Positions 3,001 through 9,000 of a stretch of 32,520 bases of DNA are shown here, piece by piece. Where the stretch lies: IMG/VR virus record IMGVR_UViG_2531839666_000028. One strand, given 5' to 3'. The stretch's first letter is position 1. Each line of letters starts with the position of its first letter. Position numbers: made by a program. This DNA is from a virus (lineage: Duplodnaviria > Heunggongvirae > Uroviricota > Caudoviricetes).

Positions 3001-6000
3001 TTCCAGGTTGAGCGAGACCTTACCTTTGGTTTTCGTGTTCATCACACCGGAAGCGACTTCACTGAGAACTGCGCCGATTTTTGTTTCAAATACGCCGCCG
3101 TCCAGCTCCCCGATAAATGCCTGCACATCAGTACTGCGTTCGCTAGCCATTTTGTTGCTCCTCATCATATCGACCCTGCAAGGTCGGTTGGTTTCTCCAC
3201 AAAACAGAGAAGAACACCTGCGGTGGCAGCCGCCCGGATGGATTGGGTTATGAGCCCGTCGTCCGGTGATGCTCTTCTCTGTTTTGTAAAAAGAGCGGTA
3301 CCAGCCGGAAGCAAGTGTACAAACTGGTACTGCCAAAGCAGTGGCTGTTGTGGTGACCGGTGCTGATCTCCGGCTTGCGGTTATTTCAGACTCTCACGGG
3401 CGTTTGATTGCCCCGCCGAACAGCTCTTTTCCGCAATAGCTGCAATGTCTTTCGCGCATCAGCCTGCGCATTCACCACAACGCTGAGAGCATTGCCGGTG
3501 TCCGAATCGAACGGACCTTTTCCCTGCCCAACCCTCCCATCTGAATGGGACTGTCTGGAATTGAACCAGCACTTATGCCTTGCTCGTCAATGCTCTCATC
3601 GTTGCGTCCTGGTCTCTTCCCAGGCGTCAAACCGAATCGCCACGCTGGTTAGGCGTCTTATCAGCATCCTCATTGACTTGCACATTCCGGCTACCTGGTT
3701 TGTTTGCCCGAGCAAGGAGTGGATTGTCCCCTTTAACGTCCCCAGACCGCTAACGACGCATGTGCCATACGCCGTGTTACAACCAAATTTTGTTAGGACC
3801 TTGTTTGTTGGTCTGGAAAGAAAGATAAAATGAAATTGCGCATTATGCAAGTGTTTTTGTTGCGAGATGCGCAATATGATGGGTGATGAAAAGCCACCTT
3901 CTGGTGGCTAATTGATGAGGAGGTCGGGGTTAATTGTGTCGCTTAAGGGTTTGTGACTGACTGATTAAGACCTTCCCAAAGACCATAAACCGGTGTTCGT
4001 TTTCGCTGGTAATTCCCCATTCACGGTAAATCTGGTTATCAGAAATCACCAGTAGTTTGTCAGGTATCATTTGCAGTCGTTTGACATAAATTTTATCATC
4101 AAAACCAAACACATAGATACCATCCCCATCAAACTGATTGATACTGATATCAACGAAGATGAGATCTCCTGGCTCAATGGTTGGACACATACTGTCCCCA
4201 CGAACGTTGATAACTTTAATGTGATTGGCTGGTCGTCCTCCAAACATCGATACAGCATTATCAGTTATGTATTCAATGGCATGAATCACATCAATGACAT
4301 CACCGCCCTGGATAAGGCCATTTCCCGCACTGGCACTGACATCCAGCATTTCAATACGGAATACATCCTTCACCTGCGCAACATCCTCACCAGTACTGTT
4401 TTTACATACAGTATTACTTTTGAAGTCTGAGGTAAAGAGATCTGCAATATCAACACCTAAGCTCCTGGCAATATTACTCAGGGCTTGTTCAGTGAATTGT
4501 TTCTGCTTACCTGTTTCCAGGCGTGAGATATTCGCCGCATCCACTCCTATTGCTTCAGCGAGATCGGCGATTTTCATGTTCTTCGCCTGGCGAAGTTGTC
4601 TGACTCGATTTCCTATGTTCATGCGTTTATTACATTTCTTTATTGCGCGTTAAGCAAATCAACTTGCGCAAAATATTTGCGTGAAATAATATGCTTATCA
4701 CGCAATATGTGGAGGTTATATGCAATCACCATTACGAAATGTGCGTAAGGCGCACGGATTTGCTTTGCAGCATGTTGCTGCGGGTGTTCAGGTTAATCCA
4801 GCGACGCTGAGTCGTATTGAGAGACTGGAACAAATTCCATCTATCGATCTGGCAGAGCGTCTGGCCAATTTTTTTAAGGGAGAAATCAGCGAAATGCAGA
4901 TTCTCTATCCTGCTCGCTTTCAATCTAGTCAAAACCGGAATGAGTTAAAACCACAGGAAAAGGAGGTAAGCCGTGGGTAAGCATCACTGGAAAGTGGAAA
5001 AACAGCCTGAGTGGTACGTGAAAGCGGTCAGAAAAACTATCGCGGCGTTGCCGGGTGGTTACGCTGAAGCAGCTGAGTGGCTGGATGTAACAGAGAACGC
5101 TTTATTCAATCGCCTTCGTGCCGATGGCGATCAGATTTTCCCGCTGGGATGGGCAATGATTTTACAGCGCGCGGCTGGCACTCACTACATTGCGGATGCT
5201 GTCGCACAGTCTGCTGGTGGGGTGTTTGTATCGCTTCCTGACATTGAGGAAGTAGAGAACGCCGATATAAACCAGCGCCTGCTGGAAGTCATCGAACAGA
5301 TCGGGAGTTACTCAAAGCAGATTCGTTCGGCAATCGAAGATGGGGTAGTGGAGCCACACGAGCAGACAGCAATGAATGATGAGTTGTATCTGTCAATTTC
5401 GAAGCTCCAGGAGCATGCGGCACTGGTCTACAAAATTTTCTGCGCTCCAGAAAAGAGTGACGCCCGCGAGTGTGCAGCTCCGGGCGTCGTGGCGTTTTGT
5501 GTCTGTGGAGAAACTAACGCATGAACAGTTTAACGGCAAATAACCGTTTGTCGCAACAGCTGGTGGTCAGTGTCGCTGCACACCTGTTGTTACGGCATGA
5601 ATGCAGATTACCAAATCACCTGGCTGTAAGTAACCACAGAGAACTTTACCTGACTGTGGGGGGCGAGTTGTGCAGGAACTTAACCGCTGGTTTCGTGACG
5701 GAAGAGGACTTTATGTTCATGTTATTCGTTGGGAGCCAGAAACACAGCGCGTTATCTATCTTCGCAAAGACTACCCGCATGAGTGCTTTAGTCCTTTGTG
5801 GAAATTCAGGCGTGATTTTGTTGAGTGTGAAGGACCACCAGCATATTGATTCTGCAATTCCGGGACGTTACACTGTTCAGGCACCTTATAAAACGGGTGC
5901 CGGGATTGGCGTCCTGAAATTGATTACTGAGCATAACCGCGCTCATGCGGTTTTTTCGTGTCATGAGCATTACTACGCCCAAATTATGGTGGGGCGTACA

Positions 6001-9000
6001 GGGCCGACTTCGGTCGGGCCGGGTTCGGTAGTCTCCGGTAACGCCAACCCTGTACGTCTCACCACCTCTGTGATTGGCGTCCCATGTGGTGAGTTTTCTA
6101 AAAAACTGACTACCGGGGCTGTCACTATGACTACTCTCCCAACCCTCTCTCAACCTGAAATTGCCATCGTTGATGGTCAGGCTGTTACATCTTCTTTGGC
6201 TGTTGCTGACTTTTTCTCTAAACGTCATGACGATGTTCTGAAAAAGATCCGCATTTTGGATTGTTCTCCAGAGTTTTGTGCCCGCAATTTTGCGGAGACA
6301 TCAATTTTGGTACGCCAGCCCAACGGCGGTACTCGCAAACTTCCTTGCTATCAAATAACCCGCGACGGCTTCGCGTTCCTGGCAATGGGCTTCACTGGCA
6401 AACGCGCCGCCCGGTTTAAAGAGGCGTACATCAACGCCTTTAACCAGATGGAAAAGCAGCTTTCAAAGCCATCCACGCTGAGCGATGCCGCACATAACGC
6501 CAGCGTGCTTTACTCCCACCTGTCGGTAATCCACAAGGTCTGGCTGCAACAACTCTATCCCATGCTGGCCAAAGTGGAATCTCCGCTGGCTATAAGCCTG
6601 TATGACCATATCAACGATGCTGCTGCGATTTCCAGCCTAATCAATATGACACTGAACCCTTCAGAGGTAAGGGGGCGCAAATGATCCGGAATATTTTCAA
6701 ACGGTTTACCGATCAGACTTTCCGTTGTCCTCGCCCGGGTCAGTGGTACACCACGCCTGCAGGGCATGTTCTACGTGTTAGCCTGGTTGACCGTGAATGT
6801 CAGAAGGTGATTTGTGAACCGCTGGGCCGTAATTACCGCGTCAGTATGCCGCTTATAGCCTTTTGCTCCGGAAAAATGTTTAAGCGTCTGGGAGGTGTGG
6901 CGTGAACTGTTTTCAGTTTGTGTGCGGATGTGCTTTCGATAACCCGATTCAGCGCCTGATTATGTTGCGTGTTTTGATGTCGGGTTCTTCAGACGGTGAA
7001 GGCGAGAGAGTTATTGATCATCAGGTGCTTGCTGATTTCTGCTGTTGTTCTAAGCAAGCGATATTCAGGGAAACCCTGGCACTGGAAAGAGCTGGTTATC
7101 TTCATATCCGAAAAATTGCAACGCTTACTATTGATGCAAAAGCCAGACTACAACCTGCGCGTGGCTACACAATTCTCATGCTGCGGAAGGAGGTTGTATG
7201 AGCCGTTACGCCCCCACACCGGAAGTTATGGCTATTGGTCAAATTAATATTTCCGGCAATGTTACACCTGCGACCTGGTGGAAATATATTCGACTACCCA
7301 GTGGGCGTCCGGATGCGACGGCTATCGCTCTGCTTTCAGAGATCGTTTACTGGTACCGCCCGACAGAGGTCAGGGATGAGCACACCGGAGCGTTGCTGGG
7401 ATATCGCAAGCGTTTTCAGGGCGACAAACTGCAAAGAAGCTACCAGGCGTTTGCTGAGCAGTTTGGTTTCGGGAAAAGGGAAACCGCAGATGCGCTGAAG
7501 CGTCTGCGCGATGCAGGGTTTATTACTCTGGATTTACGCACGGTGGAAATGCTCGATGGGGTGAAATGCAGCAATATTTTGTTTGTCGGGATCAACCCAC
7601 AGGCAATTGCGGCCATCACCACACCTTCTTCTGTTTCGCCAGAAAGTAACAGCAATAATGCAATCAGCGATACAGCTATTACGTTAAAACGGAACACCCC
7701 CCGACGTCATAACGGAACAGGGGATACGCCGAATGTTGATACAAATACAGAGATTACTACAGAGATTACAACGGAGACTAAAAACACTATTGATGCATCC
7801 GCTGACGCGTCTGCGCCAGCGCGTTCTGCCCGACAGGAATATTCACCGGAATTTGAACAGGCCTGGCAGGAATATCCCAAACGTGCTGGTGGCAATTCAA
7901 AATCAGCAGCCTTCAAAGCCTGGAAAGCCCGTTTGAACGAGGGGGTAAACCCCGAAACCATGCTGGAAGGTGTGAAACGCTACGCGGGCTGGGTATCTGC
8001 GATGGGCAATAGCGGCACACAATTTGTGAAACAGGCTGTCACGTTCTTTGGTCCGGATCGTCATTTCGAAGAATCCTGGGAAGTTCCTGCGGTATCTGCA
8101 GCCAGACGCGAGGACCCGTACTTCAAAGCCAGTTACGACAACGTGGACTACAGCCAGATCCCGGCAGGATTCAGGGGGTGATCATGAGTCTTTTGAATGA
8201 CGTTCAGAAATTCATTGAAGCCCATCCGGGGTGTACTTCCGGAGACATTGCGGATGCTTTTGCAGGTTACTCACGGCAGCGCGTTCTGCAGTCAGCAAGC
8301 AAGTTACGTCAGAGCGGGCGTGTGGCTCACCGTTGTGAAGGAGATACACGCAGACATTTCCCGCGCCTGACTGAGAGAGCGCAGGAACCGGAACCACAAC
8401 CAGTTCGTGAAACCAGACCTGTGCGCAATTTCTATGTCGGCACTAACGATCCCCGGGTGATTTTGTGCCTGACCCGCCAGGCTGAAGAACTGGAGTCCAG
8501 GGGCTTATACCGTCGTGCTGCAACCGTGTGGATGGCGGCATTCCGTGAAAGCCACTCCCAGCCAGAACGAAACAATTTTCTGGCACGTCGTGAGCGGTGC
8601 TTACGGAAAAGCAGCAAGCGCGCTGTATCGGGTGATGAGTGGTATCTGTCAGGGAATTACGTGGGGGCTTAATGAGTAATAAATATTGCCAGGAGCTGGT
8701 GGAGCTGCGGAACAAACCAGCCCATGAACTGAAGGAAGTGGGCGATCAGTGGCGCACGCCGGATAACATTTTCTGGGGAATTAACACCCTGTTTGGCCCA
8801 TTTGTCCTGGATCTGTTTACTGACGGTGATAACGCCAAATGTACCGCGTATTACACGGCGGAAGACAACGCGCTGGCGCATGACTGGTCAGAACGTCTTG
8901 CGGAGCTTAAAGGTGCTGCCTTTGGTAATCCCCCATACAGCCGCGCCAGTCAGCATGAGGGGCAATACATCACCGGCATGCGTTACATCATGAAACATGC

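What the first reader, a model, noticed from the sequence alone, without database searches (positions are those of the whole stretch)
5521..6126. Ambiguous coding after cII: possible frameshifted small gene at a G6 run, and a UUCG-capped hairpin
The track merges this stretch with the Rha antirepressor into one 387-aa ORF, but the Rha-like sequence only begins at the Met at 6127. An ORF starting at 5521 (ATGA overlap with the cII-like stop) reads for 47 codons to the GGGGGG run at 5658-5663. From there a different frame encodes a convincingly protein-like segment (ELNRWFRDGRGLYVHVIRWEPETQRVIYLRKDYPHECFSPLWKFRRDFVECEGPPAY) ending at 5850. The interval 5851-6126 has no clear coding signal and contains a stem capped by a TTCG tetraloop around 5998-6020.
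Basis: seen in the sequence. Interest (0 to 1): 0.45.

Follow-up and report, generated by a model that had tools for sequence, protein, structure and literature searches.

The report
P4-type RNA immunity cassette before Rha
The "ambiguous" stretch holds a normal small gene (DUF4222) and a known phage RNA switch (IsrK and C4 RNAs) that controls an antirepressor-type gene, all lying inside a long reading frame that appears to be kept open only so that ribosomes can pass; there is no frameshift.

Summary
The window is an E. coli ST64B/SfV/mEp460-like prophage.

- **5670-5849** is a stand-alone DUF4222 gene. It has its own GTG start, and the G run serves as its Shine-Dalgarno sequence. Relatives carry GGGGGAT at the same length, with no indel there.
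- **5851-6126** is not empty. Rfam places IsrK at 5881-5957 and C4 antisense RNA at 5982-6069, both above gathering score. The TTCG hairpin is C4 hairpin 1.
- **C4 pairing.** C4's loop a' and tail b' are complementary to boxes in IsrK (a1/b1). They are also complementary to boxes just before the Rha ATG at 6127 (b2, and a2 covering its Shine-Dalgarno). All three copies of each box co-vary across relatives, giving at least 10 a types and 6 b types.
- **The 387-codon ORF** shows no amino-acid-level constraint before 6127, yet it stays open. Across the IsrK-C4 stretch it has 0 distinct stop positions against 15 and 15 in the other two frames. Net length differences are in frame, and in relatives its ATG overlaps the stop codons of at least six different upstream genes (ATGA).

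This matches phage P4's nested eta/kil genes around its CI immunity RNA. Pfam's "Ash" domain is the translation of this cassette. It is a new member of a known kind, of modest interest.

The parts
4973..5524 (+). YmfL / CII-like (Pfam Phage_CP76) gene. Its TGA (5522-5524) overlaps the ATG of the long ORF.
   Evidence: PF06892, E 2.6e-14; PGAP 'protein YmfL'.
5521..6684 (+). 387-codon eta-like long ORF (frame f1), ATGA-coupled at both ends. It runs over region A, the DUF4222 gene (in another frame), PisrK, IsrK, C4 and the a2/b2 targets, then continues in frame into Rha. Inferred to be translated for ribosome transit on transcripts that start upstream.
   Evidence: (Pfam Phage_ASH aa 117-212 plus Phage_pRha aa 223-312).
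5521..5669 (+). Region A, the first 49 codons of the long ORF. The nucleotide sequence is strongly conserved (5521-5558 invariant in relatives that are 79-94% identical overall), but there is no codon periodicity and no Rfam match. Function unknown.
5658..5663 (+). G6 run. Most likely the Shine-Dalgarno-like element for the GTG at 5670 (6-nt spacing), not a slippery site.
   Evidence: GGGGGGCGAGTT in 31 loci, GGGGGATGA(A/G)TC in 4 loci, same length.
5670..5849 (+). Stand-alone DUF4222 gene (59 aa, GTG start), lying in a different frame inside the long ORF.
   Evidence: PF13973, 51.1 bits against a cutoff of 27; annotated as a separate CDS in phage 1720a-02 and by PGAP in strains Ec1120 and AR_0013; third-position bias.
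5846..5874 (+). Inferred internal promoter PisrK: TTGATT (5846-5851), 17-nt spacer, TACACT (5869-5874), 6 nt before the IsrK 5' end. It is the counterpart of Gifsy-1 PisrK and P4 PLE.
   Evidence: Sequence and a conserved TAnnnT at a fixed distance in relatives. It matches 8 of 12 consensus positions, below the 9 of 12 the scan requires, so this is inferred, not shown.
5881..5957 (+). IsrK sRNA (homolog of P4 SeqA). Hairpin 1 is at 5881-5900. Box b1 is GGGAUUGGCG (5902-5911) in hairpin 2. Box a1 is GAUUACUG (5922-5929). The intrinsic terminator is 5935-5952 followed by a U run.
   Evidence: RF01394, 60.1 bits against 50; the 5' half also gives a weak c4-a1b1 match at 21.7 bits; terminator; covariation.
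5982..6069 (+). C4-type antisense RNA (homolog of P4 CI and Gifsy-1 STnc1160/orf45'). The 17-bp closing stem is 5987-6003 / 6048-6064. Hairpin 1 is 6004-6017 with the UUCG loop. Hairpin 2 is 6018-6039, and its loop carries a' (CGGUAGUC, 6026-6033). The 3' tail carries b' (CGCCAACCC, 6042-6050). The AUG at 5986 corresponds to the orf45 start in Gifsy-1.
   Evidence: (RF01695, 82.3 bits against 45).
6073..6079 (+). b2 target box (AUUGGCG), complementary to b' of C4.
   Evidence: b1/b'/b2 co-vary in at least 6 types.
6108..6118 (+). a2 target box (GACUACCG), complementary to the a' loop and fused to the Shine-Dalgarno GGGG (6115-6118) of the Rha start.
   Evidence: duplex -18.7 kcal/mol against -11.3 +/- 2.2 for shuffled targets; a1/a'/a2 co-vary in at least 10 types.
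6127..6684 (+). Nested Rha-family (Bro-network, antirepressor-type) gene of 185 aa. It is the C4-controlled start and corresponds to P4 kil and Gifsy-1 anrP.
   Evidence: PF09669, E 3e-27; SD-ATG conserved in relatives; syn/nonsyn 2.45 in this frame; P4 'EAAIMATTLTP' matches window 'GAVTMTTLPT'.

Best explanation
Window 5521-6126 is the control region of a phage antirepressor-type gene, built like the immunity region of satellite phage P4. It has three layers.

1. **A small ordinary gene.** DUF4222 (5670-5849) is translated from its own GTG, with the G run as its ribosome-binding site.

2. **An RNA switch.**
- An internal promoter (about 5846-5874) drives IsrK (5881-5957), which ends at an intrinsic terminator.
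- Read-through transcripts contain the C4 antisense RNA (5982-6069).
- C4's loop a' and tail b' pair with b2 (6073-6079) and a2 (6108-6118). The a2 box covers the Shine-Dalgarno of the Rha start at 6127, so C4 should block Rha translation. By polarity, it should also block expression of the genes behind it.
- IsrK carries decoy copies (a1, b1) of the same boxes, so it can sequester C4 or refold the transcript.
- The box sequences define an immunity specificity.

3. **A 387-codon frame running over all of this.** It starts at 5521, where its ATG overlaps the stop codon of the CII-like gene. On transcripts that start upstream at the early promoter, ribosomes handed over from the upstream gene would translate straight through the IsrK terminator, C4 and the blocked ribosome-binding site. 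That would make these transcripts insensitive to the RNA immunity and would yield an N-terminally extended Rha protein. The amino-acid sequence of this extension appears irrelevant; only its openness is selected.

**Shown here:** the elements, their complementarity and covariation, the open-frame conservation without protein-level constraint, and the homology to P4 eta/kil and Gifsy-1 isrK-orf45-anrP.

**Inferred:** promoter activity, C4 processing, the direction of regulation, and actual translation of the long frame.
For: **RNA genes.** Both pass Rfam gathering scores: isrK 60.1 against 50, C4 82.3 against 45. The IsrK terminator is detected.

**Pairing.** The a':a2 duplex is -18.7 kcal/mol against -11.3 +/- 2.2 for shuffled targets. 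The a':a1, b':b1 and b':b2 duplexes are also predicted.

**Covariation.** The three copies of each box change together across 32 distinct box combinations found in viral contigs and phage genomes. Examples are GAUCAAGG/CCUUGAUC/GAUCAAGG for the a boxes and GUGGAAA/UUUCCAC/GUGGAAA for the b boxes.

**Alternative folds.** The minimum-energy fold pairs IsrK with C4 in cis, while the centroid keeps the separate canonical folds. This matches the two conformers shown experimentally for Gifsy-1 (PMC4825925).

**DUF4222.** Pfam E 9.4e-14. Variable sites split 5/20/8 over the long-ORF codon positions, with the 20 falling on DUF4222 third positions.

**Long frame open but not protein-constrained.**
- 0 stops from 5521 to the ATG at 6127 in six relatives of 79-100% identity, against 8-16 stops in the other frames. 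Lengths are 606/606/606/600/606/597, all multiples of 3.
- In 27 distinct IsrK-C4 variants, distinct stop positions number 0 against 15 and 15. Stop-creating opportunity is similar in all frames at 23.7/29.9/31.4 per sequence. An opportunity-weighted estimate gives about 5e-5, treating the positions as independent.
- Variable sites show no codon periodicity: 10/13/12, 11/11/8, 12/13/13 and 9/13/13.
- The synonymous/nonsynonymous ratio is 0.21 in this frame. The wrong frames give 0.15 and 0.12 on the same loci, and the real Rha frame gives 2.45 on a separate 13-locus set.

**Coupling.** The first ATG of the long frame overlaps the stop codon of at least six different upstream genes as ATGA.

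**P4 precedent.**
- P4 gives isrK and C4 hits.
- Its 199-aa ORF has MMM starts, is ATGA-coupled to ORF88, covers the whole Pfam Ash profile, and carries a nested 65-aa ORF whose start context matches window 6127.
- PMC10111431, summarising Forti et al. 1999, reports three things: full-length Eta is translated only from an upstream promoter, it is coupled to the upstream gene, and its translation prevents termination.
Against: - No expression data are available for this prophage.
- The internal promoter matches only 8 of 12 consensus positions and was not called by the scan.
- Evidence that the frame is selected to stay open is strong for 5881-6126 but only moderate for 5521-5880. Most relatives there are at least 97.7% identical. 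Only about three diverged lineages exist. Synonymous resampling gives P = 0.039 for the frame staying open across DUF4222.
- One natural variant (L116) has a 1-nt deletion that breaks the upstream part of the frame.
- The long frame could instead start at TTG 5821 or GTG 5827. GTG 5827 aligns with the conserved ATG of relatives that lack DUF4222. GenBank annotates the 1720a-02 antirepressor from the position equivalent to 5821.
- In roughly a quarter of C4 loci, including the experimentally studied Gifsy-1, the frame is closed or out of frame with the downstream gene. Through-translation is therefore not a general requirement of the RNA switch.
- In Gifsy-1, IsrK acts as an activator through orf45 translation. 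The balance between repression by C4 and activation by IsrK may differ here.
Confidence: 0.75

Rival explanations
1. Annotation merger only. The real genes are DUF4222 (5670-5849) and Rha (6127-6684). IsrK and C4 lie in an untranslated spacer, and the 387-codon frame is open by descent and chance and is never translated upstream of 6127 (or of the C4 AUG at 5986).
For: - There is no amino-acid-level constraint before 6127.
- The SD-ATG at 6127 is conserved and is the C4 target.
- In Gifsy-1 and about a quarter of loci the frame is closed.
- Variant L116 breaks the upstream frame.
- Most relatives covering 5521-5880 are nearly identical.
Against: - Distinct stop positions number 0 against 15 and 15, with similar mutational opportunity in all frames.
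- All net length differences are multiples of 3.
- Stop triplets inside the hypervariable a boxes always fall outside this frame.
- The frame's first ATG is ATGA-coupled to at least six unrelated upstream genes.
- The homologous P4 eta frame is reported to be translated and functionally required (PMC10111431, citing Forti 1999).
Confidence: 0.17
2. The Ash region (aa 117-212) is a genuine folded N-terminal protein domain of a 387-aa (or about 285-aa) Ash-Rha regulator. The RNA genes merely overlap it.
For: - The Pfam family Phage_ASH matches with E 3.7e-10.
- Hundreds of database proteins of 387 aa carry Ash plus Rha.
- The frame is conserved open.
Against: - Variable sites show no third-position bias.
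- The synonymous/nonsynonymous ratio is 0.21, against 2.45 for Rha.
- Co-varying RNA boxes rewrite whole stretches of the 'domain'.
- The Pfam profile coincides with the stretch from the promoter through IsrK, C4 and a2 to the start codon region, both here and in P4.
- Gifsy-1 reads the same DNA in a shifted frame.
Confidence: 0.05
3. A -1 frameshift, programmed or from a sequencing or mutational error, at the G6 run joins the 47 codons from 5521 to the 59-aa segment and gives a protein of about 108 aa.
For: - The G6 run sits at the junction of the two frames.
- The DUF4222 frame is open from 5634, upstream of the G run.
Against: - The G run is GGGGGAT in diverged relatives, with no length change.
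- The single variant with an indel nearby (L116) lost a base in CGAG, not in the G run.
- The DUF4222 profile is fully contained in the 59 aa, and a GTG with an upstream G-rich Shine-Dalgarno is conserved.
- The 47 upstream codons show no coding periodicity (10/13/12).
- GenBank and PGAP annotate the 59-aa protein on its own in relatives.
Confidence: 0.02

Closest known systems
Satellite phage P4 immunity region: PLE, seqA, CI RNA, seqC, and the nested genes eta and kil (Forti et al. 1999, J Bacteriol 181:5225, as summarised in PMC10111431; Sabbattini et al. 1995)
   Same: - The order of elements is the same, and P4 hits the same Rfam models (isrK 60.8 bits, C4 74.9 bits).
- A long ORF starts upstream of the internal promoter and is ATGA-coupled to the preceding gene.
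- That ORF spans both RNAs and matches the whole Pfam Ash profile.
- It carries a nested in-frame start with the same sequence context: P4 'EAAIMATTLTP' against window 'GAVTMTTLPT'.
   Different: - The host element here is a lambdoid (ST64B/SfV/e14-like) prophage, and the cassette sits in the early-right operon after a CII-like gene.
- The nested gene is a 185-aa Rha-family regulator instead of the 65-aa Kil.
- The long ORF carries about 100 extra N-terminal codons that overlap a DUF4222 gene in another frame.
- The a and b box sequences differ.
- The mechanism was not tested here.
Salmonella Gifsy-1 isrK-orf45-anrP locus (Hershko-Shalev et al. 2016, PMC4825925)
   Same: - IsrK has its own promoter and terminator, followed by a C4-like RNA (STnc1160/orf45') and an antirepressor-type gene.
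- The same AUG sits at C4 model position 5.
- IsrK is complementary to the 3' half of the C4 element, and two alternative folds are predicted.
   Different: - In Gifsy-1 the frame is closed just upstream of the AUG (TGA AUU AUG). The resulting orf45 has 45 codons, is out of frame with anrP, and ends in AUGA on the anrP start.
- In the window the same AUG (5986) is in frame with Rha and the frame is open 465 nt further upstream.
- Gifsy-1 AnrP has an ORF6N domain, not Rha.
- The Gifsy-1 cassette lies after the late antiterminator gene antQ, not in the immunity region.
Phage P1/P7 immI operon: c4, icd, ant1/ant2 (Citron and Schuster; Heinrich et al.; from my own knowledge), with Rfam C4 (RF01695) and c4-a1b1 (RF03163)
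   Same: - An antisense RNA is cut out of the same transcript as its target.
- Its a'/b' elements pair with a2/b2 at a ribosome-binding site and with a1/b1 upstream.
- The box sequences define heteroimmunity.
- The controlled gene is an antirepressor-type gene.
   Different: - The window has no separate icd-like leader ORF. The targeted SD-ATG opens Rha directly.
- Some relatives do have a short out-of-frame ORF at this point.
- The a1/b1 segment here is a discrete terminated sRNA (IsrK). It scores only 21.7 bits on c4-a1b1, against a gathering score of 46.7.
Pfam DUF4222 (PF13973)
   Same: The 59-aa ORF matches profile positions 4-51 of 53 with 51.1 bits.
   Different: Its function is unknown. 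Here the gene lies entirely inside another open frame.

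Membership tests
Rfam C4 antisense RNA (RF01695) | Covariance-model score at or above the gathering score, with the closing stem and two internal hairpins. | tested here: met
   82.3 bits against 45, model positions 1-87 of 87, at window 5982-6069.
Rfam C4 antisense RNA (RF01695) | Loop a' and tail b' complementary to a2/b2 at the ribosome-binding site of the downstream gene, and to a1/b1 upstream. | tested here: met
   Duplexes predicted. Coordinated covariation of all three copies across 32 box combinations.
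Rfam C4 antisense RNA (RF01695) | Processed from the precursor transcript (RNase P) into a stable RNA of about 77-80 nt that represses the antirepressor. | not testable with these tools
   Needs Northern blots or RNA-seq and genetics.
Rfam isrK (RF01394) / P4 SeqA | Covariance-model score at or above the gathering score. | tested here: met
   60.1 bits against 50, model positions 1-77 of 77, at window 5881-5957.
Rfam isrK (RF01394) / P4 SeqA | Rho-independent terminator at the 3' end. | tested here: met
   7-bp stem at 5935-5952 followed by TTTTCGTGTC; with the stem's two 3' T's this makes the run TTTTTT at 5951-5956.
Rfam isrK (RF01394) / P4 SeqA | Own sigma-70 promoter immediately upstream. 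| tested here: inconclusive
   TTGATT, 17-nt spacer, TACACT at 5846-5874. It is correctly spaced from the IsrK 5' end, and the -10 element is conserved in relatives. It matches 8 of 12 consensus positions and was not called by the scan.
P4-type nested eta/kil arrangement | A long ORF that begins upstream of the internal promoter, overlaps the stop codon of the preceding gene, and spans the seqA, CI and seqC equivalents. | tested here: met
   5521-6684, with ATGA at 5521-5524. The same is seen in P4 and with at least six different upstream genes in relatives.
P4-type nested eta/kil arrangement | An in-frame internal start whose ribosome-binding site is the antisense target (the kil equivalent). 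| tested here: met
   The ATG at 6127 is in frame (606 nt from 5521). The a2 box is fused to its Shine-Dalgarno. Its context is homologous to the P4 kil start.
P4-type nested eta/kil arrangement | Translation of the long ORF from an upstream promoter prevents termination and bypasses immunity. | not testable with these tools
   There is only indirect support: the frame is kept open without amino-acid constraint.
Pfam Phage_ASH (PF10554) | Profile match above the gathering score. | tested here: met
   40.6 bits against 26, at aa 117-212 of the long ORF.
Pfam Phage_ASH (PF10554) | Behaves as a protein domain, with purifying selection on the amino-acid sequence. | tested here: not met
   Codon-position counts are 11/11/8, 6/5/5, 12/13/13 and 9/13/13. 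The syn/nonsyn ratio is 0.21, against 2.45 for Rha.
Pfam DUF4222 (PF13973) | Profile match above the gathering score that fills the ORF, with coding-type substitution bias. | tested here: met
   51.1 bits against 27, residues 3-52 of 59. Of 33 variable sites, 20 fall on its third codon positions.
Programmed -1 ribosomal frameshift | A conserved slippery run at the junction, with both flanking frames under coding constraint. | tested here: not met
   The run is GGGGGGC here and GGGGGAT in relatives. The upstream 47 codons show no periodicity. No fused homolog was found.
Pfam Phage_pRha (PF09669) | Profile match above the gathering score. | tested here: met
   95.4 bits against 29.9 for 6127-6681.

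The most novel reading that the evidence does not exclude
The 387-codon frame may be a 'transit ORF'. Selection would maintain only its openness and its ATGA hand-over from the upstream gene. Ribosomes on early-promoter transcripts could then run over an internal promoter, an sRNA terminator, an antisense RNA and a blocked ribosome-binding site, bypassing the prophage's own RNA immunity.

The same DNA would simultaneously encode a DUF4222 protein in another frame and two structured RNAs. On this reading, Pfam Phage_ASH is not a protein domain in the usual sense but the translation of an RNA immunity cassette. The P4 eta principle would then be widespread in lambdoid prophages of E. coli and Salmonella, including Shiga-toxin-converting phages.
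Probability: 0.5. Interest if true: 0.45.

Novelty: new member of a known kind. Interest (0 to 1): 0.3.

Why it matters
For annotation:
- The region should carry a separate DUF4222 CDS, IsrK and C4 ncRNA features, and an internal Rha start at 6127, rather than only one 387-aa 'Rha family' CDS.
- The Pfam 'Ash' label should be read as a marker of a P4/P1-type RNA immunity cassette.

For biology:
- Antirepressor-type genes decide whether co-resident prophages are induced, and relatives of this cassette sit in Stx-converting phages. The a/b box type gives a simple sequence read-out of which prophages share RNA immunity.
- The open-but-unconstrained frame is a clean natural test case for translation that is selected for its act rather than its product. 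The principle itself is already known from P4.

Tried and rejected
- **Frameshift at the G6 run.** Rejected after aligning diverged relatives and counting G-run variants in 36 loci.
- **tRNA or tmRNA in 5851-6126.** None found.
- **A structured RNA in region A (5521-5669).** Folding energy is no better than shuffles (z = 0.03). Only 2 co-varying pairs appear among 4 sequences. There is no Rfam match even at E <= 10. This part remains unexplained.
- **Promoter scan.** It did not call PisrK, which matches 8 of 12 positions. The promoter therefore stays an inference.
- **Full-length protein search.** The 120 listed hits are mostly 387-aa proteins of 93-100% identity, too close to test conservation of the N-terminal part. 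Variability along those proteins was uninformative.
- **First gap-free upstream comparison anchored on the Rha ATG.** It was misaligned by a 3-nt indel and was discarded. The alignment was used instead.
- **Forti et al. 1999 (PMC94026).** The paper could not be read because it is not held. Its content is cited through PMC10111431 and from my own memory.
- **Structure prediction of the Ash segment.** Considered and not run. Only near-identical sequences could be supplied, so a low-confidence model would not have been informative.

Full report
**Origin and layout**

The window is 100% identical to a prophage in the chromosome of E. coli strain 2012EL-2448. Phages 1720a-02, Stx2a_1447, mEp460, cdtI, SfV and ST64B are 80-95% identical to it over 5400-6800. 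The local order is as follows:
- a cI-like S24 repressor at 3930-4622 (-)
- a cro-like gene at 4720-4980
- a YmfL/CII-like gene at 4973-5524 (Pfam Phage_CP76)
- the 387-codon ORF at 5521-6684, which PGAP calls 'Rha family phage regulatory protein'

**Check of the observation**

- the ATGA overlap at 5521-5524
- the G6 run at 5658-5663
- the 59-aa ORF at 5670-5849 in another frame
- the TTCG-capped stem at 6004-6017
- a Rha Pfam match that starts only after the Met at 6127 (aa 223-312)

**The small gene and the frameshift idea**

The 59-aa ORF is a DUF4222 protein (PF13973, 51.1 bits against a cutoff of 27). The match covers residues 3-52 against profile positions 4-51 of 53, so the domain fills the ORF. 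GenBank annotates it on its own in phage 1720a-02, and PGAP does so in strains Ec1120 and AR_0013.

I aligned the window with five relatives of 79-94% identity. In 5670-5846, 20 of 33 variable columns fall on DUF4222 third codon positions. The GTG at 5670 is invariant. The G run reads GGGGGGCGAGTT in 31 loci and GGGGGATGA(A/G)TC in 4 loci, always at the same length. The only nearby indel (L116) removes a base from CGAG, not from the G run.

The 47 codons upstream show no codon periodicity (10/13/12). The G run is best read as the Shine-Dalgarno sequence of DUF4222, 6 nt before the GTG. The frameshift model is not supported.

**What lies in 5851-6126**

Rfam places two families above their gathering scores:
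- isrK at 5881-5957 (60.1 bits against 50)
- C4 antisense RNA at 5982-6069 (82.3 bits against 45)

The 5' half of IsrK also matches the 'a1,b1 targets of C4' model weakly (21.7 bits, E 0.007). IsrK ends in a detected intrinsic terminator at 5935-5952 followed by a T run.

A correctly spaced promoter-like site sits just upstream: TTGATT at 5846-5851, a 17-nt spacer, and TACACT at 5869-5874. Its -35 hexamer overlaps the DUF4222 stop codon. It matches only 8 of 12 consensus positions and was not called by the scan, so it is an inference. It is supported by a conserved TAnnnT at a fixed distance in relatives.

**Pairing logic**

| C4 element | Partner downstream | Partner in IsrK |
|---|---|---|
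| a' loop, CGGUAGUC (6026-6033) | a2, GACUACCG (6108-6115), fused to the GGGG Shine-Dalgarno (6115-6118) of the ATG at 6127 | a1, GAUUACUG (5922-5929), with two G-U pairs |
| b' tail, CGCCAACCC (6042-6050) | b2, AUUGGCG (6073-6079) | b1, GGGAUUGGCG (5902-5911) |

The a':a2 duplex is -18.7 kcal/mol, against -11.3 +/- 2.2 for shuffled targets.

The decisive evidence is comparative. A pattern scan of viral contigs returned 120 loci. These, together with the phage genomes fetched earlier, give 32 distinct box combinations in which a1, a' and a2 change together. Examples are GAUCAAGG/CCUUGAUC/GAUCAAGG, GCAUACGG/CCGUAUGC/GCAUACGG and GUUAUCGG/CCGAUAAC/GUUAUCGG. The b1, b' and b2 boxes also change together. 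Examples are UUGGCG/CGCCAA, GUGGAAA/UUUCCAC, UUUGCAC/GUGCAAA, GUCGCAG/CUGCGA, UUGGAAC/GUUCCAA and GUGAGAC/GUCUCA.

These are immunity-specificity types of the kind known for P1 versus P7 (my own knowledge). The minimum-energy fold of 5881-6135 pairs IsrK with C4 in cis, while the centroid keeps the separate canonical folds. This matches the two conformers demonstrated for Gifsy-1 (PMC4825925).

**Is the 387-codon frame real?**

Before 6127 it is not constrained as a protein.
- Variable sites are spread evenly over codon positions: region A 10/13/12, IsrK 11/11/8, C4 12/13/13 and 6070-6126 9/13/13.
- The synonymous/nonsynonymous ratio among 27 gap-free variants is 0.21 in this frame and 0.15 and 0.12 in the other two.
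- On a separate set of 13 loci, the first 330 nt of Rha give 2.45 in the true frame and 0.06 and 0.14 in the wrong frames.

Yet the frame is kept open.
- All six aligned relatives have 0 stops from 5521 to the Rha ATG. The other frames have 8-16. The spans are 606/606/606/600/606/597 nt.
- Among the 27 variants, distinct stop-triplet positions number 0 against 15 and 15.
- The number of single substitutions that could create a stop is similar in all frames, at 23.7/29.9/31.4 per sequence. An opportunity-weighted estimate for 0 of 30 is about 5e-5, treating the positions as independent.
- Stop triplets inside the hypervariable a boxes always fall outside this frame.
- In relatives where homology upstream of about 5835 is lost, the first ATG of the frame still overlaps the stop codon of the preceding gene as ATGA. 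This holds for at least six different upstream genes of 59 to 183 aa.
- With the long ORF, the whole early operon from 4720 to 8181 is an unbroken chain of 4-8 nt overlaps.

**Known precedents**

*Phage P4.* It gives the same two Rfam hits: isrK at 8615-8692 and C4 (its CI RNA) at 8420-8507, both on the minus strand. The ORF at 8168-8767 (-) has these properties:
- It is 199 aa long and begins MMM.
- It is ATGA-coupled to ORF88.
- It covers the complete Pfam Ash profile (aa 22-146).
- It contains a nested 65-aa ORF, 'MATTLTPSH...', whose start context 'EAAIMATTLTP' matches window 'GAVTMTTLPT'.

These are eta and kil. According to PMC10111431, summarising Forti et al. 1999, the following holds for P4:
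- The transcript from the constitutive promoter inside eta is terminated early through CI/seqA interactions.
- Kil is the truncated form made on read-through.
- Full-length Eta is translated only from an upstream promoter and is coupled to the upstream gene.
- Eta translation prevents termination.

*Gifsy-1.* The locus has isrK, c4-a1b1 and C4 hits. Its orf45 starts at the same AUG, at C4 model position 5. There the frame is closed just upstream, is shifted relative to anrP, and ends in AUGA on the anrP start. AnrP carries an ORF6N domain rather than Rha.

*Architectures across viral contigs.* Of 106 distinct loci, 92 had both a recognisable C4 AUG and a downstream start:
- 56 have the C4 AUG in frame with the downstream SD-ATG and no stop between them.
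- 14 have the C4-AUG frame closed before the downstream start.
- Another group has the SD-ATG 1 nt out of frame. It opens only a 64-81 codon ORF while the long frame runs on, an icd/ant-like layout.

**Interpretation**

The window is a lambdoid-prophage member of the P4/P1/Gifsy-1 family of RNA immunity cassettes. The cassette controls a Bro-network (Rha) regulator.
- C4 most likely blocks the Rha start at 6127 on transcripts from the internal promoter.
- IsrK carries decoys for C4.
- The long frame most likely serves, as in P4, to carry ribosomes from the upstream gene through the cassette on early-promoter transcripts.

These three mechanistic steps are inferred by homology, not shown here.

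**Where the transit frame starts is uncertain**

Two starts are possible:
- **ATG 5521** is supported by the ATGA overlap, by the frame staying open in three diverged lineages, and by P = 0.039 for staying open across DUF4222 under synonymous resampling.
- **TTG 5821 or GTG 5827** is supported by the GenBank annotation of 1720a-02 (start equivalent to 5821) and by the alignment of 5827 with the conserved ATG of relatives that lack DUF4222.

Variant L116 breaks the upstream part of the frame.

**Side result**

The Pfam Phage_ASH match spans the stretch from the internal promoter's -10 element to about ten codons past the Rha start, here and in P4. Over that stretch there is no protein-type selection. 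The 'domain' is therefore best understood as the translation of an RNA cassette.

**Verdict**

The frameshift interpretation is rejected. The 'merged ORF' interpretation is half right: Rha has its own controlled start, but the long frame is probably functional as an open frame. All components are known, and the same nested long-ORF arrangement has been tested in P4; the Gifsy-1 locus shares the components but not that arrangement. This is a new member of a known kind and of modest interest.

Noticed in passing
window 14511-14718 (+): Full-length match to the sRNA family STnc100 (RF02076), 177.5 bits against a gathering score of 47.
   Followed up: no
window 12930-13006 and 13020-13096 (+): Two adjacent tRNA-Arg genes, with anticodons tcg and tct, inside the prophage.
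   Followed up: no
window 4720-8181 (+): If the 387-codon ORF is used, six consecutive early genes form an unbroken chain of 4-8 nt start/stop overlaps: 4720-4980, 4973-5524, 5521-6684, 6681-6905, 6902-7201 and 7198-8181.
   Followed up: partly
window 5521-5558 (region A extends to 5669): The nucleotide sequence is invariant in relatives that are only 79-94% identical overall. It shows no codon periodicity, no Rfam match and no convincing structure (z = 0.03; 2 co-varying pairs). The AACGG-N7-CCGTT inverted repeat at 5532-5548 is conserved. Function unexplained.
   Followed up: partly
L128 (phage P4, NC_001609) 8168-8767 (-); window 5869-6156: The Pfam Phage_ASH profile coincides with the isrK/SeqA, C4/CI and target RNA cassette in both P4 and this window. 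Over that stretch there is no protein-type selection, so the 'Ash domain' looks like a translated RNA element.
   Followed up: yes
L010, L026, L034, L039, L064, L068, L070, L072, L091, L092, L125 (viral contigs): In these relatives the SD-ATG behind a2 is 1 nt out of frame with the long frame. It opens only a 64-81 codon ORF, while the long frame continues for more than 450 nt. The layout recalls P1 icd/ant.
   Followed up: no
L031 (three copies); L017, L058, L069, L076, L100, L119 (two copies each): Single viral contigs carry two or three IsrK/C4 cassettes, in several cases with different a/b box specificities.
   Followed up: no
L116 (viral contig), equivalent to window 5664-5665: A natural 1-nt deletion (GGGGGGCAGTT) between the G run and the DUF4222 GTG. 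It leaves DUF4222 intact but takes the upstream part of the long frame out of register.
   Followed up: partly
P0003 (598-aa database protein, ENA): An ORF that runs through two tandem Ash-Rha cassettes. The second cassette's RNA region is read in a different frame.
   Followed up: no
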